NCBI GenBank assembly: GCA_001468865.1
Contig: LDIY01000042.1
Span: forward strand, 22,066-86,065
DNA length: 64,000 nucleotides
Direction of reading: 5' to 3'
From: a candidate division TM6 bacterium SOIL31
GTDB lineage: Bacteria > Babelota > Babeliae > Babelales > Vermiphilaceae
Part shown: positions 37,417 through 37,916 of the stretch, in pieces
How positions within the stretch are numbered: position 1 is the first letter of the stretch
How the letters are laid out: each line of letters starts with the position of its first letter
Program-made: the position numbers and the translations under genes
Notes under the pieces: generated by a model
What the model was told of the DNA's origin: nothing
The model's database searches: none
Seen by the model: the letters and a program-made list of their open reading frames with translations, nothing else

Positions 37417-37485
37417 TTTAACCCCAATTTCGTTATCTCTTCATTGGGGACCCCCACTGAAATGCAATAAAAGCTGGGGCTAAAG
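37417..37485. repeat. GGGG(T/A)CCCC-core element, copy E (symmetric, both arms present)
   Basis: CTTTTAACCCCAATTT-n-CATTGGGGACCCCCACTG-n-AGCTGGGGCTAAAG. Confidence 0.7.
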
Positions 37486-37661
37486 GGCAGGCTGCGAATG
37501 GAAGCTAGAATAAAAGAGTCGACTTTTCATTTTATAGCCCAGCCTTCGCACCATCCTCCTCCGTTAAAACTACGGCGGACATGGGCTATGGCGGGCAGCC
37601 TACGCTCTGCAAACAATATTATTGGTATTCTATATGTCAAACCTTTGAAGAGATGGCCGTG

Positions 37662-37688
37662 CCAGCCGTAGCTTTACGCGTAGGCTGG
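37662..37688. repeat. Short hairpin unit abutting the tRNA-Leu 3' end
   Basis: CCAGCC-gtagctttacgcgta-GGCTGG. Overlaps the encoded CCA by 3 nt. Confidence 0.6.
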
Positions 37689-37772
37689 TGCCGAGAGCCG
37701 GACTCGAACCGGCACGAGTTTACACTCGAGGGATTTTAAGTCCCTTGCGTCTACCTATTCCGCCATCCCGGC
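37686..37772 (-). tRNA. tRNA-Leu (anticodon UAA)
   Basis: Cloverleaf folded by hand. Acceptor GCCGGGA/TCTCGGC, anticodon stem AGGGA/TCCCT with loop CTTAAAA, long variable arm CGAGT-gtaa-ACTCG, T-arm GCCGG-TTCGAGT-CCGGC. CCA is encoded. Confidence 0.93.
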
Positions 37773-37812
37773 ACAAAATTTTAAAGGACAAAACTCGACT
37801 TTTTATCTTATC

Positions 37813-37840
37813 GCCCTACTTCGCTAAAGCTTCGTAGGGC
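37813..37840. repeat. Short hairpin unit (GCTAAAGC-loop type)
   Basis: GCCCTAC-ttcgctaaagcttc-GTAGGGC. Confidence 0.65.
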
Positions 37841-37915
37841 AAACTTTTAACCTAGTTCTTCTTTTTTCTTCGCAGGGTCCCCATTGGAGCGTTAGCGCAA
37901 ATGGGGTTAAAAGTT

Positions 37916-37916
<1 letters not shown>
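37841..37916. repeat. GGGG(T/A)CCCC-core element, copy F (76-nt palindrome abutting tRNA-Cys)
   Basis: Outer arms AAACTTTTAACC / GGTTAAAAGTTT. Centre CAGGGTCCCCATTGG...AAATGGGG. Confidence 0.7.

What the first reader, a model, noticed from the sequence alone, without database searches (positions are those of the whole stretch)
37417..37916. Recurrent GGGG(T/A)CCCC-core palindromic element next to highly expressed genes and tRNAs
Six clear copies share the core GGGG(T/A)CCCCA(A/T), a variable spacer and a distal (A/T)TGGGG(Y)TA(A/T)A. The CCCC run can therefore pair with the downstream GGGG. Copies: 10860-10897 upstream of rpsI; 12661-12693, about 25 nt before gyrB; 18847-18885 upstream of the J-protein/dnaJ pair; 34543-34611 downstream of the secretion ATPase gene; 37417-37485 about 180 nt upstream of hup; and 37841-37916 abutting tRNA-Cys. 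Copies E and F are symmetric and carry both arms. Copy F has perfect outer arms AAACTTTTAACC / GGTTAAAAGTTT. A weaker relative lies upstream of topA (CCCCCCTATAG...CATATGGGGGCTATAAAT, 49648-49690). This is not a canonical terminator because there is no T-tract, and it does not match a sigma70 promoter. Candidate roles are an operator for a global regulator, a 5'-UTR or RNA-processing structure, or a small mobile palindrome.
Basis: seen in the sequence. Interest (0 to 1): 0.62.

Follow-up and report, generated by a model that had tools for sequence, protein, structure and literature searches.

The report
Hairpin-forming interspersed repeat of Dependentiae genomes
The GGGG(T/A)CCCC motif is real: it is the core of a short hairpin-forming repeat scattered through non-coding DNA of this Dependentiae (TM6) bacterium and its relatives, and it comes and goes between close strains, so it looks like a small mobile palindrome rather than a promoter or regulator site.

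Summary
GGGWCCCC occurs at exactly the six reported sites, giving 10 strand matches against 0.5 expected. The window comes from a Candidatus Dependentiae/Babeliales genome.

The unit is about 45 nt: T-rich half-site, GGGG-W-CCCC, hairpin, TGGGG-YTAAA. About a quarter of copies are back-to-back doublets sharing the 9-mer, as in copy E. In 135 non-redundant arms from the window, relatives and metagenomes, the stem covaries strongly (97% paired, all four Watson-Crick types). The interior has a conserved GNA/GNA purine loop, a 2-bp helix and a triloop. G·T pairs are tolerated and A·C pairs are almost absent, so one strand folds.

It is neither the promoter nor an operator. rpsI, gyrB and the J-protein/dnaJ pair keep canonical sigma-70 promoters in all relatives. 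Copies A, B and C are lineage-specific insertions into their 5' UTRs. Strains 92-98% identical lack copies A and E. A copy about 90% identical to doublet E sits in unrelated flanks elsewhere.

The best reading is a REP/MITE-like structured repeat. It lacks REP hallmarks, no transposase was found, and I found no published description. The topA "relative" is not a member. A role for the RNA hairpin remains possible and untested.

The parts
10854..10901 (-). Copy A, single arm. Sequence: TTTATT GGGG T CCCC ATTT-gtaatacaatgga-AAAT GGGG TTAA. It is inserted in the rpsI 5' UTR, 16 nt before the ATG.
   Evidence: Covariance model, 60.6 bits. Absent from the orthologous UTR in L001-L008 and from X2/X3 strain contigs. 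A possible TCATA duplication flanks the insert.
12660..12700 (+). Copy B, internally shortened variant. Sequence: GGG T CCCCAT-acaa-ATGGGG TATTAAAG. It lies in the gyrB 5' UTR, about 20 nt before the ATG.
   Evidence: Core match but only about 10 bits with the model. The fold shows a 6-bp stem with a tetraloop. L001 keeps only ATGGGGTATAAAG at this site, and L002-L008 have nothing there.
18841..18888 (+). Copy C, single arm, inside an insertion of about 95 nt in the 5' UTR of the J-protein/dnaJ operon.
   Evidence: Covariance model, 58.5 bits. Absent in L001-L004. L006 has an independent copy upstream of the -35 in the same spacer.
34540..34614 (-). Copy D, variant with a 43-nt interior. It has the core and a CCCCATA/TATGGGG stem, and starts 15 nt after the stop of the T2SSE-type ATPase gene, between convergent ORFs.
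   Evidence: The interior contains a GCTAAAGCTAC stretch resembling another local repeat.
37410..37490 (.). Copy E, a doublet. The left arm is 37414-37460(-) and the right arm is 37440-37487(+). They share GGGGACCCC at 37445-37453. The doublet lies about 100 nt upstream of the hup promoter.
   Evidence: Model scores of 35.9 and 52.2 bits. A contig 97.7% identical in the flank replaces 37408-37506 by 26 nt. A copy about 90% identical to 37410-37489 occurs with unrelated flanks. L119 has only a decayed core at the orthologous site.
37841..37916 (.). Copy F. The right arm, 37869-37914(+), is intact. The left arm, 37843-37888(-), is degenerate. It lies between tRNA-Leu(-) and tRNA-Cys(-).
   Evidence: Model scores of 25.9 and 17.5 bits. 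tRNAs located. Several related contigs join the two tRNAs through only 15-40 nt, without F. L119 has a doublet at the orthologous site.
10948..10976 (-). Context, not part of the element: the rpsI promoter, TTGACA (10976-10971), 17 nt, TATACT (10953-10948). Copy A lies downstream of it.
   Evidence: Conserved in the window and in L001-L008.
18756..18784 (+). Context, not part of the element: the J-protein/dnaJ promoter, TTAGCA, 17 nt, TATAAT. Copy C lies downstream of it.
   Evidence: Conserved in L001-L006.
12574..12610 (+). Context, not part of the element: two conserved TATAAT boxes (12574-12579 and 12605-12610) upstream of gyrB. Copy B lies downstream of both.
   Evidence: Conserved in L001, L002, L003, L006 and L008.

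Best explanation
The motif is the core of a family of short, non-autonomous, hairpin-forming interspersed repeats. They resemble REP/REPIN or MITE elements and are native to Dependentiae (TM6) genomes.

**Anatomy.** One unit is about 45 nt: a T-rich half-site of about 10-16 nt, GGGG-W-CCCC, a hairpin, then TGGGG-YTAAA. The hairpin has an 8-bp stem made of CCCC plus 4 variable pairs, a GNA/GNA purine internal loop, a 2-bp helix and a triloop. About a quarter of copies are doublets, with two outward-facing units sharing the 9-bp palindrome.

**Shown.**
- The structure is supported by covariation.
- One strand is the folded one.
- Copies are restricted to non-coding DNA.
- Copies are gained and lost between close relatives.
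- In this window the copies sit downstream of, or apart from, the real promoters.

**Inferred.**
- Copies spread or turn over by a DNA-level process that recognises the folded strand and the conserved ends. Candidates are a hairpin-binding transposase or recombinase encoded elsewhere in the genome, or gene conversion.
- Any effect on neighbouring genes is secondary. An example would be a hairpin of about -10 to -14 kcal/mol added to the rpsI, gyrB and dnaJ leaders, or placed after the ATPase gene.
For: **Reality and spread.**
- The core is about 20-fold enriched in the window.
- The window's gyrB is 80-96% identical to MAGs labelled Dependentiae/Babeliales.
- A metagenome scan hit its 120-locus limit, mostly in contigs of 31-42% GC.
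- There are 119 non-redundant elements, 31 of them doublets.

**Structure.**
- In 135 arms, stem positions 6 and 7 pair in 122 and 106 cases, against 44 and 35 in shuffles.
- In the 49-arm ungapped alignment, 96.9% of cells pair. There are 81 double-change cells against 27 in shuffles and at most 14 when the partner is slid.
- RNAalifold predicts the same structure independently.

**Strand.** There are 81 G·T pairs against 3 A·C pairs. The asymmetry is the same in copies antisense to their neighbours (9/17) as in sense copies (17/46). In 22 of 31 doublets at least one arm has the wobble on its own outward strand.

**Turnover.**
- Copies A, B and C are absent from orthologous UTRs whose promoters are conserved.
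- L001 and L006 carry independent copies elsewhere in the same spacers.
- Strain contigs 92-98% identical lack A and E.
- A copy about 90% identical to doublet E lies in unrelated flanks.
- A decayed core sits at the E site in L119.

**Genomic setting.** All 6 window copies are intergenic. The genome also holds at least one other inverted-repeat family.
Against: - No transposase, integrase or HUH gene lies in the window or among recurrent neighbours of elements.
- Copies within one genome are very diverse, unlike a recently amplified MITE.
- Insert boundaries are inconsistent. TTAA(A) belongs to the insert in copy A and in L121, but is already present at the empty site for copy E and for L006. 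Only one plausible target duplication was seen (TCATA).
- Orientation is biased with the upstream gene (46:17; tandem 27:11). That bias could instead mean an RNA-level role.
- The rpoC-tRNA-Val site is occupied in three diverged contigs.
- No whole genome could be scanned.
Confidence: 0.6

Rival explanations
1. The element is a host-functional cis-acting RNA element. When transcribed, the hairpin with its GNA/GNA internal loop and triloop would do one of three things: stabilise mRNA as a 5' or 3' protective stem-loop, mark an RNA-processing site, or dock an RNA-binding protein. On this reading the family spreads because it is useful.
For: - Strong covariation and tolerance of G·U on one strand.
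- A conserved non-canonical internal loop, which suggests more than a plain stem.
- The upstream gene is co-oriented 46:17, and tandem contexts are 27 sense against 11 antisense.
- Copies A, B and C lie in 5' UTRs, and copy D lies 15 nt after a stop codon.
- The element sits between rpoC and tRNA-Val, ending 4 nt before the tRNA, in three diverged contigs. After RNase P cleavage it would be a 3'-terminal hairpin.
Against: - About a quarter of single-arm copies are antisense to their neighbours and keep the same G·T pattern.
- In doublets each arm's wobble is on its own outward strand, so one read-through transcript cannot fold both arms well.
- Copies are dispensable between strains 92-98% identical.
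- There is no Rfam match.
- No RNA data exist for this organism.
Confidence: 0.22
2. The element is an operator or nucleoid-protein site. A dimeric DNA-binding protein would recognise the palindrome YGGGGWCCCCR and its mirrored flanks, and would co-regulate rpsI, gyrB, dnaJ, hup and tRNA genes.
For: - The 9-mer is invariant even in single-arm copies, where the 5' GGGG has no pairing partner.
- Single-arm copies keep a mirrored half-site out to about -12/-16.
- In the window the copies lie near DNA-topology, chaperone and translation genes.
Against: - The gene association is not conserved in relatives.
- Positions relative to the mapped promoters vary from far upstream to deep in the UTR.
- Thirteen of the 51 single-arm copies with both neighbours assigned sit between convergent genes or in divergent spacers without a fixed register.
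- G·T against A·C asymmetry and stem covariation are not expected for a purely double-stranded site.
Confidence: 0.08
3. The element is a promoter cassette. TGGGGYTAAAA would act as an extended -10, with a TGNAA -35-like box in the loop. Alternatively an outward-facing promoter in the left half-site would produce transcripts with a 5'-terminal hairpin.
For: - The spacing from loop GAA (+8 to +12) to TAAA (+30) is 17-18 nt.
- Both arms of a doublet fold correctly only in RNAs read outward from the centre.
Against: - Canonical, conserved sigma-70 promoters already serve rpsI, gyrB, dnaJ and hup, and lie elsewhere.
- tRNA-Val starts 4 nt after GGGG in L061, L118 and L131, so TAAA cannot be its -10.
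- Arms point at gene starts only 37:26.
Confidence: 0.05
4. The element is an intrinsic transcription terminator of an unusual kind.
For: The upstream gene is usually co-oriented and often ends 2-50 nt before the element.
Against: - There is no U-tract on either strand.
- Canonical hairpin-plus-T-run terminators are present in the same genome, for example after hup at 36943-36909 and after the 11807-12472 gene.
- Copies lie inside 5' UTRs and between co-oriented tRNA genes, where termination would be harmful.
Confidence: 0.03

Closest known systems
REP / BIME / REPIN elements of Proteobacteria (mobilised by RAYT transposases)
   Same: Both are short imperfect palindromes that are extragenic and present in many copies. 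Both occur as singlets and inverted doublets, have a strand-specific hairpin, and are often co-transcribed with neighbouring genes.
   Different: - The conserved 5' GTAG is absent. A G4-W-C4 core and a TGGGG-YTAAA end take its place.
- Doublet arms share a central 9-mer rather than pairing with each other by design.
- Copies within a genome are far more diverse.
- No RAYT gene was seen in the DNA available.
- The host phylum is different.
Bacterial MITEs (Correia/NEMIS elements, Rickettsia palindromic elements)
   Same: Both are non-autonomous and insertion-polymorphic between strains. Both can sit in UTRs and change transcripts. Several families coexist in one reduced genome.
   Different: - This element is much shorter, at about 45-80 nt.
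- It has no long terminal inverted repeats at the outer ends of single units.
- A target duplication was seen only once.
- It never lies inside coding sequence in the window, unlike RPEs.
- Its copies are not near-identical.
Integron attC sites
   Same: Both have conserved ends with a variable, structurally conserved interior and a single-strand fold. The doublet ends RTTTAAC...GTTAAAY resemble the R''/R' cores RYYYAAC/GTTRRRY.
   Different: There is no cassette array and no integrase nearby. Single-arm units lack R''. The base after GGGG is T in only 61% of arms. Copies are scattered among housekeeping genes.
Human satellite III (TGGAA)n fold-back structures and tandem sheared G·A motifs in RNA internal loops
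   Same: The hairpin interior is three YGNAR pentamers, often TGGAA or TGAAA. These can form G·A, A·G and A·G pairs flanked by Watson-Crick pairs. This comparison rests on my own knowledge of those structures.
   Different: The resemblance is only structural. There is no sequence homology or functional link.

Membership tests
REP/REPIN (RAYT-associated) | Short imperfect palindrome, extragenic, in many copies per genome | tested here: met
   There are 6 sites in 64 kb, all intergenic, and 8 model hits in 225 kb of gyrB-anchored loci. The structure is supported by covariation.
REP/REPIN (RAYT-associated) | Conserved GTAG tetranucleotide at the 5' foot of the hairpin | tested here: not met
   The 5' side is GGGG-W, invariant in 115 of 189 hairpin readings and in the mirror image in nearly all the rest. 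There is no GTAG.
REP/REPIN (RAYT-associated) | A cognate RAYT (Y1 HUH transposase) gene, typically flanked by REPs | tested here: inconclusive
   None was found in the window (Pfam) or among recurrent neighbours in 559 ORFs of metagenome loci. No whole genome could be scanned.
MITE | Terminal inverted repeats plus a target-site duplication | tested here: inconclusive
   Doublets end in TTTAR-CCCC...GGGG-YTAAA. Only one plausible duplication was seen, TCATA at copy A. Other filled/empty pairs give inconsistent boundaries.
MITE | Presence/absence polymorphism at orthologous sites | tested here: met
Sigma-70 promoter | -35/-10 hexamers placed to drive the downstream gene and conserved with it | tested here: not met
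   The conserved promoters lie elsewhere. In relatives a tRNA starts 4 nt after the element.
Intrinsic terminator | G+C-rich hairpin followed by a U-tract | tested here: not met
   The hairpin is followed by YTAAA(A). Canonical terminators exist elsewhere in the window.
Integron attC | R''/L''...L'/R' cores within a co-oriented cassette array next to intI | tested here: not met
   There is no array and no integrase. Single arms lack R''.
Any Rfam family | Match at the gathering threshold | tested here: not met
   Only the two tRNAs pass the threshold. Nothing credible appears at E<=10 around 37200-38300.

The most novel reading that the evidence does not exclude
The G4-W-C4 hairpin could be a previously unrecognised class of element that is recognised as a folded single strand. 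It has conserved feet (GGGG-W-CCCC...TGGGG-YTAAA) and a GNA/GNA purine loop. Two readings fit:
- a transferable RNA module that sets mRNA ends or stability through a dedicated Dependentiae protein;
- the substrate of a new hairpin-specific mobilisation enzyme.

The same architecture, with its own compensatory stem changes, also turns up in human-gut phage contigs and in contigs of about 70% GC. That hints at a mechanism shared well beyond this phylum.
Probability: 0.15. Interest if true: 0.7.

Novelty: new member of a known kind. Interest (0 to 1): 0.45.

Why it matters
Dependentiae are obligate intracellular bacteria with small genomes and almost no experimental genetics. A well-defined structured repeat family has several uses.
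- **Strain marker.** It marks recent genome change between strains.
- **Annotation.** It explains odd "conserved motifs" next to housekeeping genes. That prevents their mis-annotation as promoters or operators.
- **Model.** The covariance model makes the family searchable.
- **Follow-up.** It gives a handle for finding the enzyme or RNA-binding protein that recognises it.

Insertions into the rpsI, gyrB and dnaJ leaders are natural experiments on how such hairpins affect expression. If the wider G4-W-C4 architecture in phages and high-GC bacteria reflects one mechanism, the interest would be broader.

Tried and rejected
- **Sigma-32-type -10 (CCCCATNT).** No -35 at a workable distance, and the orientation is wrong for dnaJ (reading).
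- **TGGGGYTAAAA as an extended -10 with a TGNAA -35 in the loop.** This looked attractive from spacing. It was rejected because conserved promoters lie elsewhere and tRNA-Val abuts the element.
- **Terminator.** No U-tract, and canonical terminators are present.
- **Rfam.** Only tRNAs matched.
- **ncRNA in the 200-nt gap 37488-37685.** The fold is not better than shuffles (z = -1.39).
- **Hammerhead-like reading of UGAAGAG...CGGAAC.** The core does not fit and there are no three stems.
- **4-bp YTAR target duplication.** Rejected because left TTAG pairs with right CTAA, which is inverted and not direct.
- **Replication-strand bias.** Oriented GC skew is 35:19, but this is confounded with gene strand at 33:20.
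- **RNA-seq evidence.** No RNA run holds the locus.
- **Literature.** Searches on Dependentiae/TM6 with promoter, motif, repeat or hairpin, and on the literal 9-mers, returned nothing relevant.
- **Single-sequence folding energies.** These are not informative (z between -2.0 and +0.55). The evidence for structure is the covariation.

Full report
**Origin and observation**

The window has about 38% G+C. Its gyrB is 96% identical to an uncultured MAG and 80-90% identical to MAGs titled Candidatus Dependentiae or Babeliales. It therefore comes from a Dependentiae (TM6) genome.

All six are intergenic. The distal motif alone is not enriched. Only two tRNAs match Rfam.

**Anatomy**

When oriented, every copy reads GGGG-W-CCCC-R...T-GGGG-YTAAA. 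A metagenome scan with that pattern hit its 120-locus limit, mostly in contigs of 31-42% GC.

From the window, 11 gyrB-anchored loci and these contigs I collected 135 non-redundant arms. Of these, 53 were not ascertained by the pattern. In those 53:
- the T before the 3' GGGG is 98% conserved;
- the base after CCCC is A or G in 96%;
- the tail is (T/A)TAAA.

The stem next to CCCC/GGGG covaries. Positions 6 and 7 pair in 122 and 106 of 135 arms, against 44 and 35 in shuffles, and all four Watson-Crick types are used.

For the commonest length class, 49 arms align without gaps. The proposed structure has three parts: an 8-bp stem, a 3x3 purine loop with G-N-A on both sides, and a 2-bp helix closing a triloop. 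It is 96.9% paired. It has 81 double-change cells, against 27 in shuffles and at most 14 when the partner is slid. RNAalifold predicts the identical structure. The interior reads as three YGNAR pentamers.

The 5' GGGG-W is part of the unit. Bare CCCC...GGGG hairpins without it are very rare. Single-arm copies keep a mirrored T-rich half-site to about -12/-16.

Thirty-one of 119 elements are doublets sharing the 9-mer.

The covariance model recovers A, C, both arms of E and the right arm of F. It scores F's left arm marginally, scores B and D as weak variants, and does not find the topA site.

**Which strand folds**

G·T pairs number 81 against 3 A·C (26 against 3 without position 5). One strand is therefore the folded one.

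The wobble is as common in copies antisense to their neighbours (9/17) as in sense copies (17/46). In 22 of 31 doublets at least one arm carries it on its own outward strand. The asymmetry therefore belongs to the element, not to the direction in which neighbours are transcribed.

**Not the promoter, operator or terminator**

Alignment of orthologous spacers shows canonical promoters conserved in all relatives:
- TTGACA-17-TATACT for rpsI;
- TTAGCA-17-TATAAT for the J-protein/dnaJ operon;
- TATAAT boxes for gyrB;
- TTGACA-17-TAGTGT for hup (conserved only between the window and L119; L021, L033 and L111 keep TTGACA with other -10 boxes).

Copies A, B and C lie downstream of these promoters, in the 5' UTRs, and are absent from the same UTRs in relatives. 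L001 has a reverse-oriented copy elsewhere in the gyrB leader. L006 has one upstream of the dnaJ -35.

In L061, L118 and L131 tRNA-Val begins 4 nt after GGGG, so TAAA cannot be its -10.

Among single-arm copies:
- the upstream gene is co-oriented 46:17;
- the downstream gene is co-oriented only 37:26;
- tandem contexts are 27 sense against 11 antisense;
- 9 copies lie in convergent spacers and 4 in divergent spacers.

Ordinary hairpin-plus-T terminators exist in the genome.

**Turnover**

- A contig 97.7% identical over 37014-37407 replaces 37408-37506 (doublet E) by 26 nt.
- Several contigs join tRNA-Leu to tRNA-Cys without F.
- Contigs 92-95% identical replace 10859-10937 (copy A) by 26-31 nt, while another strain keeps it.
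- A copy about 90% identical to the whole 80-nt doublet E occurs in three metagenomes with unrelated flanks.
- L119, orthologous for the tRNA-Leu-hup region, has only a decayed core (GGGTTCCCC) at the E site.
- Filled/empty comparisons give one neat case: copy A, a 44-nt insert flanked by TCATA. Several others are untidy. TTAA(A) is sometimes part of the insert and sometimes already at the empty site. The termini and mechanism are therefore not settled.
- No transposase was found in the window or among recurrent neighbours, which are housekeeping genes such as HU, PNPase, S15, RpoC-sized proteins and ABC-F.

**Interpretation**

The best-supported reading is a REP/MITE-like structured interspersed repeat. 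Its hairpin and conserved feet are maintained because they are what the propagating process recognises. It lands in, or survives only in, non-coding DNA.

Shown:
- the family, its structure and its strand asymmetry;
- restriction to intergenic DNA;
- gain and loss between relatives;
- independence from the real promoters.

Inferred:
- mobilisation as a folded single strand by an enzyme encoded elsewhere;
- merely secondary effects on the mRNAs that carry it.

The main rival is a host-useful RNA hairpin acting as a stabiliser, processing mark or protein dock. Three things keep it alive: the sense bias, the conserved purine loop, and the long-occupied rpoC-tRNA-Val site. No RNA data exist to test it.

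**Comparison and novelty**

The family shares the lifestyle of REP/REPIN and bacterial MITEs. It fails the REP hallmark (GTAG), has no identified RAYT, and is much more diverse within a genome. The resemblance of the doublet ends to attC cores is superficial.

I found no description of the element in the searchable literature. I file it as a new member of a known kind.

The same G4-W-C4 hairpin architecture, with its own compensatory changes, also appears in human-gut phage contigs (L014, L045; 95% identical to MT835493.1) and in contigs of about 70% GC. This may be coincidence created by the search pattern, or a hint of a wider class.

Noticed in passing
window 20415-20500, 40148-40324, 16820-17019: A second, unrelated family of intergenic inverted repeats has arms of the type GTTCGTATCCTTCGACAAGCTCAGGACGAACGG. 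The largest example has 54-nt arms that are 85% complementary. In metagenome relatives, its inner part (AAGCTCAGGACGAGCG) follows the G4-W-C4 element at a fixed offset of 8 nt in 7 of 135 arms, and it also occurs inside an element loop (L119).
   Followed up: partly
window 37814-37842 and 17523-17566; L003, L061, L119, L127: A third small motif, (stem)TTCGCYAARGCTTCG(stem), for example gccctacTTCGCTAAAGCTTCGtagggc. It often lies just after tRNA 3' ends or next to G4-W-C4 elements in relatives.
   Followed up: no
window 18756-18784: The J-protein/dnaJ promoter overlaps an inverted repeat, TTAGCA...TGCTA(t)AA, that resembles a degenerate CIRCE operator for HrcA. A conserved GGCCA...TGGCC hairpin sits in the 5' UTR at about 18896-18918. 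Both are conserved in L001-L006.
   Followed up: partly
L014, L045, L068, L107 (GC about 0.47); L025, L039, L069, L087, L095 (GC about 0.7); L117: Repeats with the same GGGG-W-CCCC hairpin and GGGG-CTAAA layout but perfect long stems occur outside Dependentiae, sometimes in tandem. The 0.47-GC set matches uncultured human-gut phage records (MT835493.1, 95% identity). Stems differ by compensatory changes, for example ACAAG/CTTGT against GCGGG/CCCGT.
   Followed up: partly
window 37488-37685: A 200-nt stretch without an ORF lies between doublet E and tRNA-Leu. It is partly conserved in L119 and has a sigma-70-like site on the minus strand (TTGACA-16-TATTGT, 37640-37613). There is no Rfam match and the fold is not better than shuffles (z = -1.39).
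   Followed up: partly
window 18927-19196: A small stand-alone J-domain protein of 89 aa is encoded immediately upstream of the full-length dnaJ (19261-20403). The arrangement is conserved in L001-L006.
   Followed up: no
L078 5290-5420 and L109 (orthologous): Downstream of tRNA-Met, a duplicated copy of the tRNA 3' end (atccagccccgcaaccaa) follows a degenerate G4-W-C4-like hairpin. This is the signature expected of an integration at the tRNA.
   Followed up: no
window 20511-21638; 41416-46900: A NurA-domain nuclease gene and a BatD/VWA/TPR (Bat-like) gene cluster lie in this small genome. About half of the window's ORFs have no Pfam match at E<=1e-5.
   Followed up: no
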